A stretch of 64,000 bases of DNA, from IMG/VR virus record IMGVR_UViG_3300010353_000347, positions 52,295 through 116,294 of that record; one strand, given 5' to 3'. Made by a program: the position numbers and the translations under genes. Below are positions 5,701 to 49,979 of the stretch, piece after piece. The stretch comes from a virus. The notes below the pieces were generated by a model. The model worked only from the letters and a program-made list of their open reading frames with translations. It did not search any database and had not been told where the DNA came from. Numbering within the stretch: the first letter of the stretch is position 1; each line of letters opens with the position of its first letter.

Positions 5701-6567
5701 CGCAAATACCTCTTCCCCCCTGTCTAAGAAGAGGTCGTCCGTTGTCAACTTTTCCGTGAAGTCGGTAGCCACCCCCGATTCCATCTGGTGAATAGTTGGA
5801 TCGTGGGCAGTTACATAGTGCCTACCGGCCTGCTCTGAGTAGTAGCTACCCCGACCTGATACGTCGCAGTCGGAAACGCTAGTGACTTCTACGTCGGCTG
5901 TAAACAGAATGTCGTCACTAAGCTCTACCCAAGCGTTGTAGCTCGTGTAGCTTCCGTTACCATCCGCCCCAGACAGGTCGGAAGCGTTATTGCTAGTACC
6001 ATAGATCCAGGGACCGTAAGTTGCGTTTCCAGTTAACGTGTTCTGCTGGCTGACTCCGACCTCAACCCGAAGTCTTGGCGCGTCCCACGACGGGTCGATA
6101 AGTACAGGTGTACCTATGGTGGAACCTACAGACTGTGCCCAAGCAAAGTATCTCTTCGTAGACCCTGAAGTCCACAAACTACTCACCGATCCAGACTTCA
6201 GAGGAATCAAAGTGGCGAGAAGCTGGTCGTTCCTGTCTACGATACCTACGAATATTTGGGCGCAGGCTTGCGCGGAAATCGATCCCGACGTGTTTTGGGC
6301 ACACTCCCACAGCGATGTAACTGTCCCGTCAATTGTCTGACCTGGGGCTAGGGGGGGAGACTCCAGAAGGAACATGGCGGTGTTCTTCCTGGAATCTTCT
6401 ACGACGTTGTTCATTGCCAATGAGAACCCAGTCTTAGTTCTCGACTGTGTGAGGATTCTTTGTCCGGGGGCAATGACGCGGTTCTGGAGACGCCTATCCT
6501 GATCCCAACCACCAACCAGGGATTTTCCGGTGAGGTTCGTAGTGCGTAAGTAGAAGCGGGTTGCCAA
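2764..6567 (-). CDS. Large baseplate wedge/tail protein containing P2 gpI-like domain
   Basis: 1267 aa; FDVDTCETKYLPYLAKMIGY...LREAVSWYKRKGLTESFRILFYSLGY is the P2 gpI-type signature; near baseplate J-like gene. Confidence 0.75.
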   Translation of the reverse strand: MATRFYLRTTNLTGKSLVGGWDQDRRLQNRVIAPGQRILTQSRTKTGFSLAMNNVVEDSRKNTAMFLLESPPLAPGQTIDGTVTSLWECAQNTSGSISAQACAQIFVGIVDRNDQLLATLIPLKSGSVSSLWTSGSTKRYFAWAQSVGSTIGTPVLIDPSWDAPRLRVEVGVSQQNTLTGNATYGPWIYGTSNNASDLSGADGNGSYTSYNAWVELSDDILFTADVEVTSVSDCDVSGRGSYYSEQAGRHYVTAHDPTIHQMESGVATDFTEKLTTDDLFLDRGEEVFAFIGGSTCVNYGSIYDTVQTHVQLRAQSEGGEDVITYHRVGGVPEWYDWTGLGGVAVYEAKYTGNHKFSLWMAKPQNDGVGQFRDASIVVFRRELGDLVAKSETTATHGVGTHTLLTLDLPPNQSFFVMGSVISSRAISTNGQANYAIKSGAETLALQFGLDAIFYGGSNIPLTQERQVISPFCFVETGAEGKTITLDKIVLTSSFSSHSAYLVAIPFDRIGGIQRQELADPAKKYAPPGTYPVISHTTTPGMGKALVVAGPRNGMLTYGQELSIYLYQDRERKGGVQRAQGRGSTTVGVRAITLVYPYTEDGLEHTLDLEVYNNSAVTNQFQGVTNPAIYVLSLDHVPTINKGDVDIEAQVNVDIDGDIPVMTVIHDAGEVGVESTVDVAVSPLVIRQSSVSVEVDPYVLIEPGVIRTAGIDVEAAVNVSISGKVIQRSHYFRDNLLRFLPGEFAYQDRSIGDLEDFLQVVSLSMDEFDSFIEEFTTIFDVDTCETKYLPYLAKMIGYPLSERDDEDSQRTQLREAVSWYKRKGLTESFRILFYSLGYVINLVELWTKDYETFHKYPGSFLPRVFRAEVFGTSSPTVSVSSNTCALRIRIDGSPAVDIRLTPEVSKPLDTIAQEIQVKLVDVGGQCVVEGGKLVIRSLESGQESSVRLEDVPLSAYSILGLYPGTWYGFNPVVPDDFVDLKENGGAWYKSPHFGIEVFAIKDYVLDPEEFWYIRDRIELVRPAHTVLDWIDYVKALADTFSVSESDFIAELTPGQIDVWPFPICIDRGENSQFEYLRDGLVPNRSEVTRVEYQHYRLVIDTAPRRNQFEYEYYILSRDSETGPTPMPTRGELHYYRDGMPIGDPKRDSCGYDVEEVNIHVAWEEAQSWCIALYRDGGAKYRDQPDTWYRDGSFTLVTSRDPYYLDRDGLDMLLDRSGCYPPLDADLGLLFERPDLPGVWFTSLDAMSDPESLGITELLPQPGEDGPGI

Positions 6568-39068: not shown

Positions 39069-39127
39069 GGTTTGTCCCTCCCTTCACCTGAGACACTACC
39101 ATAACCTTTTCGTAGTGTCAACCCCCC
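39069..39127 (-). promoter_or_regulatory. Early-type promoter-RBS cassette copy 3
   Basis: TTGACA-CTACGAAAAGGTTATGG-TAGTGT-CTCAGGTGAAGGGAGGG; 52 bp identical to copy 5. Confidence 0.85.
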
Positions 39128-47071: not shown

Positions 47072-47454
47072 GACAGGTTGGGGAGGAAGATACCAAAGAG
47101 CTTTTCCGAATCTTCCGTGACAGATTCAAGGATTTGGATTGCATCCCCACCGTAGGGGTGCCAGGACGGTTTGTGGACGCCTACAGCGCCTTTGCTCTCG
47201 GTTGGCTCGTGAGGGACGAATGCGAGAGCCCTGAGCTTGACAGGACACCGTTTCAGTCGCACAGCTTCTCTCGGGGTGAAGAGTACGGTATCGAAGAGGC
47301 GATACGGGGGGTGGAGGATATCCTGTCAGGGAAGGACGACGGTTCTGCTCCTAGCTTCCTACGGTTCCCCCCCTTTGAGGGTGTTAGGGGTCGGTTGATC
47401 GCACTCAAACAGAAAGCGGAGGGGCCTAGCTTACGGAGGGACGGGGGGGGTTGA
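47068..47454 (+). CDS. Hypothetical protein
   Basis: 128 aa, ATGA coupling. Confidence 0.6.
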   Translation: MRQVGEEDTKELFRIFRDRFKDLDCIPTVGVPGRFVDAYSAFALGWLVRDECESPELDRTPFQSHSFSRGEEYGIEEAIRGVEDILSGKDDGSAPSFLRFPPFEGVRGRLIALKQKAEGPSLRRDGGG

Positions 47455-47503
47455 CACTACGAAAAGGTTATGGTAGTGTCTCAGGTGAAGGGAGGGCGAG
47501 ACA
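47445..47503 (+). promoter_or_regulatory. Early-type promoter-RBS cassette copy 5
   Basis: 52 bp (47445-47496) identical to reverse complement of 39076-39127. Confidence 0.85.
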
Positions 47504-47950
47504 ATGACAACGGAAGCCAACAGCCTGAGCCTGACAGAGTTCTGGGGCGAACCCATCTCCGTCTACACGGAGGAGGACGCCCTGAGAGACGGAACCCTCG
47601 TGGAGGTCACCGACACGGCCCGTGAGGCTGGGTTCTCCTGCCGCTACTTCCTGACCCGTGCAGCGTGGGAGGATTTCGCGGAGTGGACCCCGCAAGACGA
47701 GAAGGCCAAGGGTGGGGCCGGTCAGTCCGTTCGGGGTCGCCTGTGGGATGTCGTCTGGATGTCCAAGTTCGCCAGCAGCCGTGCCAACGTCGAGCGGGGA
47801 TACGGATACTTCAAGTTCTCCCGTGTCCCCCGTCCTGGCCGGGGTCGGCAGAGAGTGGTCACCGCCAAGATCGTTTTCGGCGGCACGTTCAACGGGGAGC
47901 CGTCTGCCACGGTCATGCTCCCTAACGATCCGAGTTCAGCGGCGCGATAG
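47504..47950 (+). CDS. DUF6573-like protein; C-terminus altered by cassette insertion
   Basis: ISVYTEEDALRDGTLVEV...EAGF...GRLWDVVWM...TVMLPN; original end PNED* displaced to 49927-49941. Confidence 0.75.
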   Translation: MTTEANSLSLTEFWGEPISVYTEEDALRDGTLVEVTDTAREAGFSCRYFLTRAAWEDFAEWTPQDEKAKGGAGQSVRGRLWDVVWMSKFASSRANVERGYGYFKFSRVPRPGRGRQRVVTAKIVFGGTFNGEPSATVMLPNDPSSAAR

Positions 47951-47975
47951 CGTCCGCTGCAACGAGTGGTTAGGT
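47921..47975. other. attC site 1 (permuted, extrahelical base on right arm)
   Basis: CCTAAC...TTCAGCGG...CCGCTGCAA...GTTAGGT. Confidence 0.85.
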
Positions 47976-47998
47976 CTCATAAAACTGAAGGAGGAAGC

Positions 47999-48970
47999 AT
48001 GAAAAGAAAGACGCAGACATTGTTCAATCAGAATCACACGGTCGCCGATGTGTTCAACCAATCGGAATCTATTGTCGTGTACCCCGGCGATTGCCTCGAC
48101 CTCTTAAAATCAATACCGGATGAGACACTCCAACTTGTTGTCACTTCACCCCCTTACAACATCGGCAAAGAATACGAGAAGAAACTTCATCTCGATGTGT
48201 ACTTACAACAGCAAGCCCAGGTCATCGCCGAGTGTGTCCGTGCCTTGTCCCCCAAGGGCAGCATTTGTTGGCAGGTCGGCAACTACGTTGACAGGGGAGC
48301 CATCATACCTTTGGACACCGTGTTATATCCCATTTTCGCAGACTTTGGTCTTCGGATGCGGAATCGCATCATCTGGCACTTTGAGCATGGACTACACTGT
48401 AGCCGCCGATTTTCTGGCCGCTACGAAACAATAATCTGGTTCACAAAGTCGGATGAGTACGTCTTCAATCTCGACCCAGTGCGCATCCCACAGAAATACC
48501 CCGGGAAAAAGTATTTCAAAGGCCCGAAAGCCGGCCAGTATTCGTGCAACCCACTTGGCAAGAATCCCGGAGACCTGTGGGTAATTCCGAACGTAAAAAG
48601 CAATCATGTCGAAAAGACCGAACACCCGTGTCAGTTCCCCGTTGAGCTGATTGAGCGATTGGTGCTTTCCCTCACCAATGAAGGGGATTGGGTGCTAGAT
48701 CCTTTCCTTGGAACGGGCACGTCGATTATCGCCGCTATCCGTCATGGACGCCGGGGTGTTGGGGCCGAGACTGTAGCGAAGTATGTAGAGCTTGCACGAC
48801 AGAGAATCCAGCAGGAAATGGACGGCACATTGCGAACCCGGCCTATGGCCAGGCCAGTTTATGACCCTGTGGAAGCCGGAAACAGCCTTACAATAGCTCC
48901 TTGGGATAAGAAGGAATCCAAGCAAATGAGGTTACTTGAAAAAAGAGCAAAGTATGGAAAGGAACACTGA
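47999..48970 (+). CDS. Type II DNA methyltransferase (beta class, probably N4-C)
   Basis: TSPPYN motif IV, HPCQFPVELIERLV, VLDPFLGTGT motif I; GGAGG SD. Confidence 0.92.
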   Translation: MKRKTQTLFNQNHTVADVFNQSESIVVYPGDCLDLLKSIPDETLQLVVTSPPYNIGKEYEKKLHLDVYLQQQAQVIAECVRALSPKGSICWQVGNYVDRGAIIPLDTVLYPIFADFGLRMRNRIIWHFEHGLHCSRRFSGRYETIIWFTKSDEYVFNLDPVRIPQKYPGKKYFKGPKAGQYSCNPLGKNPGDLWVIPNVKSNHVEKTEHPCQFPVELIERLVLSLTNEGDWVLDPFLGTGTSIIAAIRHGRRGVGAETVAKYVELARQRIQQEMDGTLRTRPMARPVYDPVEAGNSLTIAPWDKKESKQMRLLEKRAKYGKEH

Positions 48971-49581
48971 TGAATATCTCTGAGACATATTCCCATTTGA
49001 ACGGGCTTGAATTCCTTTTAGTTCACAAGCCAAACCTTTGGAAAGAAATACAAGCTGTCATTGCTGCGGTGGATGCCAATAAATGTCGAACGAAAGTATC
49101 CAAAGAAAAAACGATGAAGGGCAAGCTTCTATTTAGTCCCATCGACATGAATTCTGAATTCAATCGTCTGCTTCGGGAACAATCTTGGGACGAAAGCCGA
49201 GTGAGCTATTGGGTTACCAAAAGCGAAAAGTTGATTCGGAAAACGCTTACGATGCCTGCGGAAGAGCAAAAACGGGAGATTGAGGCAGCTGGCGAAACAC
49301 CTATTTTTAGCTATAACCAGACTGATTTTGTCAAAGATCGGGTGGCCGTTGAGGTTCAGTTTGGAAAGTATGCTTTTGTCGCATATGACCTTTTCGTCAA
49401 ACATCTCGCGTTCTATGTTGGTGATCGAATAGACGTAGGAATTGAAATTCTTCCAATGAAATCCCTTCAAAGCCAGATGAGTTCCGGTGTCGCTTACTAT
49501 GAGGGCGAGTTCTATAACGTAGTTCGTCAAGGGCGCGGTGTGCCAGCAGTCCCACTCGTGCTTATTGGTATTGAACCTTGA
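48970..49581 (+). CDS. Type II restriction endonuclease, BglII/BstYI family
   Basis: NQTDFVKDRVAVEVQFGKYAFVAYDLFVKH...IDVGIEILP...MSSGVAYYEGE (D...E-x-Q active site). Confidence 0.88.
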   Translation: MNISETYSHLNGLEFLLVHKPNLWKEIQAVIAAVDANKCRTKVSKEKTMKGKLLFSPIDMNSEFNRLLREQSWDESRVSYWVTKSEKLIRKTLTMPAEEQKREIEAAGETPIFSYNQTDFVKDRVAVEVQFGKYAFVAYDLFVKHLAFYVGDRIDVGIEILPMKSLQSQMSSGVAYYEGEFYNVVRQGRGVPAVPLVLIGIEP

Positions 49582-49591
49582 AAACTTTGAG

Positions 49592-49649
49592 ACCTAACAA
49601 TCGGTTGCAGCGGACGGCGTTCCGCCGCCGCTGAACCGGAGCGTTAGGT
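49592..49649 (+). other. attC site 2 (canonical)
   Basis: ACCTAAC-AATCGG-TTGCAGCGG...CCGCTGAA-CCGGAGC-GTTAGGT. Confidence 0.9.
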
Positions 49650-49664
49650 GGCGAAGGAGAAAAG

Positions 49665-49931
49665 ATGAGAGATCAACTGAAAGAACCATCCGAATACTTG
49701 GGGAAACTGGAAGCCTTGCGAAAGGTGAATCGTTATGCAAAACGCTGGGCGCTACGTCTGGAATCGCACACGAACAGGCATCCCGAGTGCAGCGGCAGAC
49801 CGTGGGGATGGTATGAAATCTACCCACTCGGGATCGAGGTTGGATTCTGGGGATCTGACAAAGACGACTTGAAGGGTGTGGACATTGTCGCCTGGAACGA
49901 GGAAGCCGAGCGCATCAGTCGAGCCACCTAA
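49665..49931 (+). CDS. Cassette-borne hypothetical protein (88 aa)
   Basis: AAGGAG SD just after attC2; stop TAA lies in the R-double-prime box GCCACCTAAC as typical of cassettes. Confidence 0.8.
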   Translation: MRDQLKEPSEYLGKLEALRKVNRYAKRWALRLESHTNRHPECSGRPWGWYEIYPLGIEVGFWGSDKDDLKGVDIVAWNEEAERISRAT

Positions 49932-49956
49932 CGAGGACTGAGGGCCAAACGGACTA

Positions 49957-49979
49957 GAGGCAGGGCAACCCCCTGCCTC
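49957..49979 (+). terminator. GC-rich hairpin, possible terminator
   Basis: GAGGCAGGG-loop-CCCTGCCTC; weak T-tract. Confidence 0.4.

What the first reader, a model, noticed from the sequence alone, without database searches (positions are those of the whole stretch)
47921..49941. A circular two-cassette integron intermediate integrated into a phage gene
Seen: the DUF6573-like gene reads ...ATG CTC CCTAACGA[2-kb insert]CCTAACGA GGAC TGA, so removing the insert restores MLPNED*. The insert is attC body - MTase - REase - attC2 - ORF - R-double-prime box. Each cassette has self-complementary ends: GTTAGGTCTC/GAGACCTAAC and GTTAGGTGGC/GCCACCTAAC. The second cassette's attC is split, with its first box at the right end and its body at the left, as expected if a circle was opened inside that attC. 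No integrase is in the window. Established: IntI excises cassette circles and can insert them at non-att secondary GTT-type (attG) sites. Inference: a host integron integrase delivered defence cassettes into an infecting phage genome, a route for phages to capture integron cargo.
Basis: partly seen in the sequence, partly recalled or inferred. Interest (0 to 1): 0.9.

Follow-up and report, generated by a model that had tools for sequence, protein, structure and literature searches.

The report
Integron cassettes nested in phage gene
Two integron-type gene cassettes, one of them a complete BstYI-like restriction-modification system that also sits in bacterial integrons, were inserted one after the other into the last codons of a gene of a large tailed phage, which shows in natural data how phages pick up integron cargo, although integron parts in phages have been reported before.

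Summary
A 2,006-bp insert (47926-49931) lies in the last codons of a phage DUF6573 gene, between two copies of CCTAACGA. It holds two attC hairpins, a methylase, a BstYI-like endonuclease and an 88-codon ORF.

The one-step "two-cassette circle" reading is not supported. Public assemblies show two separate units:
- **ORF88 cassette (332 bp).** It is attC1 plus ORF88, with the attC reversed relative to the gene. It occupies this site without the RM genes in about 16 contigs. It also sits at five or more other G|TT sites in unrelated phages.
- **RM cassette (1,674 bp, 47970-49643).** It occurs at 99.3-99.8% identity in non-phage cassette arrays. A homologue at 85% identity lies in a complete bacterial integron. 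Here it is inserted at the GTTAGGT box of attC1.
- **A third allele.** It carries a different 277-bp cassette (ORF62) at the identical site.

That sister cassette has a clean filled/empty pair in another phage, with no duplication or deletion. No empty allele of this site was found, but DUF6573 relatives end in LPxED, as predicted.

The best reading is sequential insertion by a host integron integrase acting in trans at secondary sites. Integrase-less attC clusters in lytic phages are published, and this scan has noted attC cassettes in phages on other DNA.

The parts
47504..47950 (+). Phage DUF6573 gene as it now reads (148 aa). The native part ends at Asn (47924-47926). The last 7 residues, DPSSAAR, are read-through into attC1.
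   Evidence: Pfam PF20213, E 6e-15. Relatives end in LP[NSDT]ED.
47921..47928 (+). Left copy of CCTAACGA. The inferred crossover is AA|C at 47925|47926, which is G|TTAGGG on the - strand.
   Evidence: Three alleles share the same junction.
47917..47978 (-). attC1, the site of the ORF88 cassette. Its top strand lies on the - strand, so its recombining bottom strand is the + strand. The box on the phage side is a hybrid (GTTAGGG).
   Evidence: CM 56.1 bits, E 1.8e-12, - strand only. The fold puts two bulged bases on the 3' arm of the + strand.
47970..49643 (+). RM cassette of 1,674 bp: TTAGGTCTC, methylase, endonuclease, GAGACCTAAC, attC2 body, G.
   Evidence: Exactly this stretch is missing in RM-less alleles. 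Homology to non-phage arrays (99.3-99.8%) and to a complete integron (85%) starts at 47969 and ends at 49646-49651, at the cassette limits.
47999..48970 (+). DNA methyltransferase (N6_N4_Mtase), 323 aa.
   Evidence: Pfam E 1.2e-51.
48970..49581 (+). BstYI-like type II restriction endonuclease, 203 aa. Its start overlaps the methylase stop.
   Evidence: Pfam Endonuc-BglII, E 1.5e-35. Full-length match to BstYI (1sdo), E 3.3e-91. The identical protein lies on 54 contigs.
49589..49652 (+). attC2, the site of the RM cassette, in canonical orientation behind its genes. After G 49643 it continues into the ORF88 cassette.
   Evidence: CM 74.5 bits, E 1.7e-17 on +, against 23.1 bits on -. Same orientation relative to intI in a complete integron.
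49644..49931 (+). Right part of the ORF88 cassette: TTAGGTGGC, ribosome-binding site, ORF88 (49665-49931), ending GCCACCTAA. Together with 47926-47969 it makes the 332-bp cassette.
   Evidence: The same unit, 98-100% identical, lies in unrelated phage contigs.
49927..49941 (+). Right copy of CCTAACGA, with the crossover at 49931|49932. The displaced last codons of DUF6573 follow (GAG GAC TGA).
   Evidence: DUF6573 family C-termini.
49957..49979 (+). Terminator-like hairpin just behind the original stop codon. The cassettes therefore lie between the gene body and this hairpin.
   Evidence: This is a consensus scan only.

Best explanation
Two integron gene cassettes entered the phage DNA in separate steps. 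Each step was a site-specific recombination of the kind catalysed by an integron integrase (IntI), supplied in trans by the infected host.

**Step 1.** A 332-bp circular cassette (ORF88 plus attC1) recombined through the folded bottom strand of attC1. That strand is the sense strand of ORF88. Its partner was a double-stranded secondary site, G|TTAGGG, formed on the opposite strand by the Pro-Asn codons near the end of the DUF6573 gene. The crossover at AA|C left the attC body at the left end of the insert and its first box at the right end. It replaced the last two residues of DUF6573 with a 7-residue tail.

**Step 2.** A 1,674-bp RM cassette of bacterial integron origin recombined through the bottom strand of attC2. 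Its partner was the perfect GTTAGGT core at the gene-side end of the resident attC1. This put the methylase and endonuclease in the same direction as the phage genes.

**Expression and benefit (inferred).** All three ORFs lie upstream of the DUF6573 terminator-like hairpin, so they are probably transcribed with that gene. The likely benefit is that the BstYI-like methylase protects the 105 RGATCY sites of the phage from hosts that carry the same cassette. The endonuclease may be a passenger, or it may act against competing DNA.

**Shown:** the anatomy, the cassette limits, the alleles, the family membership and orientation of the attC sites, and the bacterial origin of the RM cassette.
**Inferred:** the enzyme, the order of the two events, expression and benefit.
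For: **The attC sites are genuine and their orientation is known**
- The shared core of attC2 and reversed attC1 hits more than 120 genome contigs of many phyla.
- These hits are nearly always flanked by xxCTAAC ... GTTRRRY, and they are co-oriented wherever several lie together.
- The covariance model separates the strands: 74.5 against 23.1 bits for attC2, and the - strand only for attC1.
- Two contigs fix the orientation. In L042, a degraded intI on + has attC sites on -, pointing away from it. In L183, intI (TIGR02249, 391 bits) on - is followed by cassettes on +.

**The cassettes are separate units**
- Contigs of other runs join 47968 to 49643, skipping 1,674 bp.
- L141, L144, L148, L151, L156, L157 and L172 are the same phage, 98-100% identical nearby. 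They carry attC1 directly followed by ORF88.
- The allele with the RM cassette was seen only in SRR5168925/6 and in the window's own record.
- The RM cassette lies in non-phage arrays beside outer-membrane, toxin-antitoxin, APH and Mrr cassettes at 99.3-99.8% identity. Homology ends at the cassette limits.

**The junction chemistry fits IntI**
- The ORF88 cassette sits at six fully read sites, and a sister cassette (ORF62, 277 bp, attC3 at 43 bits) at four, in unrelated phages.
- Every junction is AA|C.
- ORF62 occupies exactly the same site as ORF88 in a 98-99% identical phage.
- A filled/empty pair (L173 and L187, 99.1-99.5% identical over 7.8 kb) differs by exactly 277 bp, with no duplication or deletion.

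**The target end is as predicted**
- DUF6573 relatives end in LPxED, three of them in LPNED.

**The insert is recent and foreign**
- GC drops inside it.
- It carries CAGCTG and GCCGGC, which are absent from the 130-kb palindrome-purged backbone.
Against: - No integron integrase is in the phage record, and the host is unknown.
- No empty allele of this particular site was found. The denominators in the two collection scans were small.
- The RM cassette did not enter at the canonical bottom-strand cleavage point of attC1. It entered at the opposite box, which requires either a double-stranded secondary-site reaction or use of the top strand of attC1.
- In this whole attC family the bulged base nearest the R box is C on the bottom strand. 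From memory, the classic attC of aadA7 has G there.
- ORF88 and ORF62 point away from their attC, which is unusual for cassettes.
- The order of events rests on parsimony. Precise loss of the RM cassette from a two-cassette ancestor is not formally excluded.
Confidence: 0.8

Rival explanations
1. One-step insertion. A single circle carrying both cassettes was excised from a host integron and opened inside the attC of the second cassette. The RM-less alleles arose later by precise excision of the RM cassette.
For: The outer junctions are the same with or without the RM cassette. The flanks of RM-plus and RM-less alleles are 100% identical nearby, so the two differ by one very recent event whose direction is not observed directly.
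Against: - attC1 and attC2 are oppositely oriented, so excision from a co-oriented array cannot yield that circle.
- ORF88 alone sits at five or more other sites in unrelated phages.
- The RM cassette was never seen next to ORF88 outside this phage.
- The RM-plus allele is confined to one study, while RM-less alleles come from many samples.
Confidence: 0.07
2. The cassettes moved without an integron integrase. Candidates are microhomology-mediated or illegitimate recombination at the CCTAAC boxes, as Qi et al. 2023 suggested for phage CALINs, or another enzyme such as a hairpin-specific HUH transposase or the phage's own small serine recombinase.
For: No IntI is linked to any phage copy. An 8-bp identity lies at the window's junctions. 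A serine recombinase is encoded at G000:C1:2136-2537.
Against: - All ten cassette insertions have the crossover at the same AA|C, while the shared identity with the target is as short as 3 bp.
- The filled/empty pair shows no loss or gain of bases.
- The unit limits coincide with the G|TT of attC sites that belong to a family found next to intI.
- No Y1 transposase is in the record.
- No recombinase family was listed for any called gene within a few kb of the cassette in the other phage contigs.
Confidence: 0.08
3. Assembly artefact. Metagenome assemblers joined a phage contig and integron cassettes at shared attC repeats.
For: attC sites are repeats, and contigs often break at them.
Against: - The sequence shared at the junctions is 7-8 bp, far below assembler word sizes.
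- The same junctions appear in IMG/VR, Logan, ENA, JGI and NCBI assemblies from several studies.
- Logan contigs of two runs carry the whole RM-plus allele at 100% identity.
Confidence: 0.02

Closest known systems
[quoted passage not shown] 2023, PMC9892861)
   Same: attC sites and cassettes inside phage genomes with no integrase. Methylase cassettes occur among them, and some sites point in divergent directions. That paper showed IntI1 recombining phage attC sites.
   Different: That work required at least two predicted attC sites per locus, did not establish how the cassettes entered, and suggested illegitimate recombination. Here the junctions, three alleles at one site, a filled/empty pair and a bacterial counterpart of the cassette point to site-specific entry. 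Solo cassettes are the common form. A full RM pair is carried, not an orphan methylase.
attC x attG insertion of cassettes at non-classical genomic sites (Loot et al. 2024, Nat Microbiol, as cited in PMC12614218)
   Same: A cassette enters a double-stranded site outside any integron, and the result is a stranded cassette without an integrase. Here the targets share little beyond GTT and the insertions are precise.
   Different: Described for bacterial genomes. Here the targets are phage genomes, the same cassettes recur at many sites in unrelated phages, and a resident attC box then served as the next landing site.
Defence systems as integron cassettes (Kieffer et al. 2025; Getz et al. 2025, as cited in PMC12614218; RM cassettes as noted in PMC9892861)
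   Same: A type II RM system packaged as one cassette with its own attC, present in a complete bacterial integron.
   Different: Here the defence cassette is carried by the phage, where the methylase would work as counter-defence.
Strand selection and insertion orientation at attC sites (Bouvier et al. 2009, PMC2727003; Nivina et al. 2016, PMC5027507)
   Same: Unpaired features decide which strand recombines. The split arrangement of attC1 is what follows when the recombining strand is the + strand.
   Different: These are experimental systems with canonical cassettes. Here the ORF itself is reversed relative to its attC, in two independent phage-borne cassettes.

Membership tests
Integron attC recombination site | Inverted core boxes R'' (RYYYAAC) and R' (GTTRRRY) | tested here: met
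   attC2 has ACCTAAC ... GTTAGGT. attC1, read on the - strand, has ACCTAAC ... GTTAGGG, the second box being a hybrid with the phage.
Integron attC recombination site | Imperfect hairpin with a second pair of boxes, an unpaired spacer and bulged bases on one arm that mark the recombining strand | tested here: met
   The folds show an R stem, an internal loop, an L stem and two single-base bulges. On the presumed bottom strand the bulges lie on the 3' arm. The proximal bulged base is C, where G is the classic case.
Integron attC recombination site | Belongs to a family that occurs in co-oriented arrays next to an integron integrase | tested here: met
   More than 120 genome contigs. CM scores of 74.5, 56.1 and 43 bits. 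intI lies next to arrays in L183 and L042.
Integron attC recombination site | Accepted by the curated attC models (IntegronFinder, HattCI) | not testable with these tools
   Those models are not available here. A covariance model of 91 bacterial sites was used instead. Its seed pattern came from the window, but the R boxes and spacers were not part of that pattern.
Integron attC recombination site | Recombined by IntI | not testable with these tools
   Needs a conjugation-based attC x attI or target assay.
Integron gene cassette | A discrete unit whose limits fall at G|TT and which is found in different contexts | tested here: met
   RM cassette: homology in six or more other contexts starts at 47969 and ends at 49646-49651. 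ORF88 cassette: six fully read sites. ORF62 cassette: four sites.
Integron gene cassette | The ORF reads towards its attC (usual, not universal) | tested here: not met
   Met for the RM cassette. ORF88 and ORF62 read away from their attC. Reverse-oriented cassettes are known, so this does not exclude membership.
Complete integron | intI, attI and a promoter next to the array | tested here: not met
   No PF00589 or TIGR02249 match in the 132-kb record.
CALIN as called by IntegronFinder | At least two attC sites within 4 kb and no integrase | tested here: inconclusive
   Two sites lie 1.6 kb apart but on opposite strands. From memory, IntegronFinder groups sites by strand and drops singletons by default, so this locus and the solo cassettes might go unreported.
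attC x secondary-site (attG) insertion | Target with GTT, crossover at G|TT, no duplication or deletion | tested here: met
   AA|C at all ten cassette junction pairs. An exact filled/empty pair for the sister cassette. For the window's own site the empty state is inferred from family C-termini.
IS200/IS605-type hairpin transposon or its non-autonomous derivatives | Y1 transposase, with subterminal hairpins at both ends | tested here: not met
   No PF01797 match. There is one hairpin per unit, and it is completed only on circularisation.

The most novel reading that the evidence does not exclude
Small cassettes such as ORF88 and ORF62, whose genes are reversed relative to their attC and which were seen here only in phage contexts, may form a phage-adapted cargo class. 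They would use host integron integrases to move between unrelated phage genomes. Each landed cassette would leave an attC that works as an integrase-less landing pad through which the phage can capture bacterial cassettes such as this RM system. Integron recombination would then be a gene-exchange network among lytic phages, not only a bacterial device.
Probability: 0.4. Interest if true: 0.75.

Novelty: new variant of a known kind. Interest (0 to 1): 0.6.

Why it matters
Integron parts in phages have been catalogued, but how they get there was left open. This locus offers natural evidence for site-specific entry:
- identical junction chemistry at ten insertions;
- three alleles at one site;
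- a clean filled/empty pair;
- a cassette shared at over 99% identity with non-phage cassette arrays.

It suggests three things. A phage can neutralise a host RM defence by capturing the very cassette that encodes it. One landed cassette can seed further capture. Surveys that require two co-oriented attC sites may undercount integron cargo in phages. It also supplies concrete substrates for testing integrase action on phage DNA.

Tried and rejected
- **Empty allele of this site.**
  - The exact predicted junction gave no hit in metagenome contigs or viral contigs.
  - The filled allele itself was found only once in those collections, so this is weak negative evidence.
  - None of about 22 contigs carrying the downstream 59-aa gene is empty.
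- **Empty sites for three ORF88 insertions in other phages.** None found in IMG/VR.
- **Close relatives by DUF6573 protein in IMG/VR.** Only one weak match.
- **Isolated phages and plasmids.** No match to either small cassette in INPHARED, and none to the RM cassette in PLSDB. INPHARED gave only 70% methylase matches in Burkholderia phages.
- **Function of ORF88.**
  - No Pfam or PHROG family.
  - A confident AlphaFold model (pLDDT 85, helix, three strands, helix) has no significant match in the PDB or BFVD.
  - Function left open.
- **Rejected readings.** Hairpin transposon, assembly chimera and one-step circle, for the reasons given under rival explanations.
- **Not followed.** The methylase-only contig in run X18 could not be tied to any stored protein.
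Full report
**Setting.** The window is part of a 132,356-bp IMG/VR virus record. The record is linear, estimated 89% complete, and 56% GC. Tail sheath, tail tube, baseplate hub and a lytic tail protein show that it is a contractile-tailed phage. Neither the tyrosine-recombinase family nor the integron-integrase model finds anything in the record. A small serine recombinase lies about 100 kb from the finding. No Y1 transposase is present.

**Observation.**
- The gene at 47504-47950 is a DUF6573 member. It runs ...ATG CTC CCT AAC and then into foreign sequence.
- CCTAACGA occurs at 47921-47928 and again at 49927-49934. The second copy is followed by GGACTGA.
- Removing 47926-49931 (2,006 bp) gives a protein ending in MLPNED.
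- Sixteen aligned family members all end in LPxED or a close variant, three of them in LPNED. The inferred target is therefore the natural end of the gene.
- The insert holds attC1, a methylase, an endonuclease, attC2 and ORF88.
- The endonuclease matches BstYI over its whole length (E 3e-91). The likely target is therefore RGATCY.
- GC falls to 41-52% inside the insert.

**Are the hairpins attC sites, and which way do they point?**
- attC2 on the + strand and attC1 on the - strand share a core. A pattern made from that core hits more than 120 genome contigs from many phyla, plus nine viral contigs.
- In nearly all of these hits the core is flanked by xxCTAAC and GTTRRRY. Multiple hits on one contig are co-oriented.
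- The consensus of 91 bacterial copies is a textbook attC: GCCTAAC ... GTTAGGC.
- A covariance model built from those copies gives the following scores:

| Site | Strand | Bits |
|---|---|---|
| attC2 | + | 74.5 |
| attC2 | - | 23.1 |
| attC1 | - | 56.1 |
| attC1 | + | none |
| attC3 (a third site, found later) | - | 43.0 |

- Nothing else in the window scores.
- Two contigs tie the model's strand to the integron frame. In L042 a degraded intI points away from attC sites on the other strand. In L183 an intact integron integrase (TIGR02249, 391 bits against a cut-off of 265) is followed by cassettes on the opposite strand.
- attC2 is therefore canonical behind the RM genes. attC1 is reversed relative to ORF88, so its recombining bottom strand is the window's + strand. 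The folds agree: the two bulged bases lie on the 3' arm of that strand.

**Are there two units or one?**
- Contigs of four public runs were laid on the region.
  - One run without the phage flanks joins 47968 to 49643, skipping 1,674 bp.
  - A digester run has a 1,752-bp contig covering exactly 47969-49645 between unrelated flanks.
  - Two runs from other studies hold the same phage with 268 other letters in place of 47928-49924.
- Exact-protein look-ups explain all three.
  - **ORF88 without RM.** L141, L144, L148, L151, L156, L157 and L172 are the same phage, 98-100% identical nearby. In them attC1 is followed directly by ORF88.
  - **ORF62 allele.** L152-L154 are the same phage (98.3-99.8% identical). 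At the identical AA|C they carry a different 277-bp cassette with attC3 and a 62-codon ORF.
  - **RM plus ORF88.** This allele appears only in SRR5168925/6 and in the window's own record.
- Of about 22 places carrying the downstream 59-aa gene, counting places the tool grouped as similar, about 16 have ORF88 alone, 5 have ORF62, 1 has RM plus ORF88, and none is empty.

**Where else do the cassettes occur?**
- **RM cassette.**
  - It lies in non-phage arrays beside outer-membrane, PIN/DUF433, APH and Mrr cassettes at 99.3-99.8% identity.
  - Homology starts at G 47969 and ends at 49648-49651.
  - In the complete integron of L183 the homologue is 85% identical over exactly 47969-49646.
  - That copy has the same TTAGGTCTC start and GAGACCTAAC box.
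- **ORF88 cassette.**
  - At 98-100% identity it lies in contigs that share nothing else with the window.
  - The sites are L142/L147 (TGCAA|CGGC), L143 (GCCTAA|CTAG), L149 (GCCTAA|CTTT), L150 (GCCAA|CCTG) and L181 (GTCTAA|CGAC).
  - A further partial site appears in run X4, and L182 holds a copy with a decayed attC1.
- **ORF62 cassette.**
  - Its protein is indexed in 176 blocks.
  - It lies in three further phage contexts.
- Every junction is AA|C, which is G|TT on the other strand.
- In all eight annotated contexts the cassette ORF runs in the same direction as the phage gene upstream of it.
- For the L173-type insertion an empty site exists. L187 is 99.1-99.5% identical over 7.8 kb on both sides and lacks exactly the 277 bp, with no duplication or loss.

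**Mechanism.**
- By established integron chemistry, the folded bottom strand of an attC is cleaved at AA|C. It is then exchanged with the AA|C strand of a double-stranded partner, and the product is fixed by replication.
- A cassette whose bottom strand is the + strand must therefore appear on that strand as: target-AA, then C plus the attC body, the cassette contents, the first box ending in AA, then C-target.
- That is what ORF88 and ORF62 show at every site. The 'split attC' is thus the canonical product and not a sign of an unusual opening.
- The RM cassette lies between G 47969 and T 47970. This is the GTTAGGT core at the gene-side end of attC1, read on the + strand. It is the canonical product for the bottom strand of attC2.
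- The partner in that step was not the canonical cleavage point of attC1. Either the box served as a double-stranded secondary site, or the top strand of attC1 folded.
- The cassettes sit upstream of a terminator-like hairpin at 49957-49979. Co-transcription with DUF6573 is plausible but not shown.

**What the RM cassette might do.**
- The backbone is strongly purged of 6-bp palindromes: 339 observed against 1,487 expected, with 20 of 64 absent.
- It still has 105 RGATCY sites. A phage that expresses the endonuclease therefore needs the methylase.
- The simplest benefit is self-methylation, which defeats hosts carrying the same cassette. This is inference.

**ORF88.**
- The family is small (28 clusters) and has no name.
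- Diverged members lie in phage early regions. Some have no attC, and some have only minimal boxes on both sides.
- A confident model has no structural match.

**Comparison with what is known.**
- Qi et al. 2023 reported integrase-less attC clusters in virulent phages, methylase cassettes among them, some sites in divergent orientation, and IntI1 activity on phage attC sites. They left the entry mechanism open.
- Insertion at attG sites is described for bacterial genomes.
- This scan has noted attC cassettes in phages on other DNA.
- New here are the following:
  - the population-level evidence for site-specific entry;
  - the recurrence of two reverse-oriented solo cassettes across unrelated phages;
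  - capture of a complete RM cassette at a resident attC.

Noticed in passing
whole record G000 (backbone without 47926-49931): Extreme avoidance of 6-bp palindromes: 339 observed against 1,487 expected, and 20 of 64 absent, including AGATCT, GGATCC, CTGCAG and CTCGAG. The insert carries CAGCTG and GCCGGC, which the 130-kb backbone lacks.
   Followed up: partly
window 47445-47496 and 39076-39127 (inverted): A 52-bp element containing TTGACA is present twice in the window. It is a branching node in contig graphs of other samples, with different sequence on either side. It may be a repeated phage promoter.
   Followed up: no
run X18, record 4: A 3.3-kb contig carries 47969-48931 (cassette start and most of the methylase, 100% identical) without the endonuclease. 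Its end overlaps the 52-bp element. It may be a phage with an orphan methylase derived from this cassette. It could not be tied to a stored protein.
   Followed up: partly
G000:C1:2136-2537 (outside the window): A small serine recombinase (Resolvase domain, 78 bits, 205-aa open frame) is encoded by the phage. Nothing links it to the cassettes.
   Followed up: no
L123, L125, L127, L129 (IMG/VR contigs): These viral contigs hold several co-oriented attC sites of the same family: two in L129 and about three to seven in the others, counting weak matches. Whether they are phages or misfiled bacterial integrons was not checked.
   Followed up: no
L169 1961-2949 and L170 44-1032: A 69%-identical ORF88 homologue follows a phage methylase. 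It is flanked on both sides by a minimal CTAAC-TCC-GTTTAGG motif, that is, R boxes without the hairpin body. It may be a decayed or miniature attC.
   Followed up: no
L142 about 5900-6350: There the ORF88 cassette appears to split a small CxxC...CxxC (zinc-ribbon-like) phage ORF. Insertions are therefore not always at gene ends.
   Followed up: no
L183 5432-5800 and 8930-8990: In the complete bacterial integron, a stretch of about 60 bp that begins with TTGACAT and lies just upstream of the RM cassette resembles the sequence next to intI. It may be a duplicated attI or promoter region.
   Followed up: no
L137 1-47: Upstream of the RM cassette in the 99%-identical arrays lies a perfect 18-bp palindrome (AGTTGCTATATAGCAACT), and contigs break there. 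It could be an operator near an attI.
   Followed up: no
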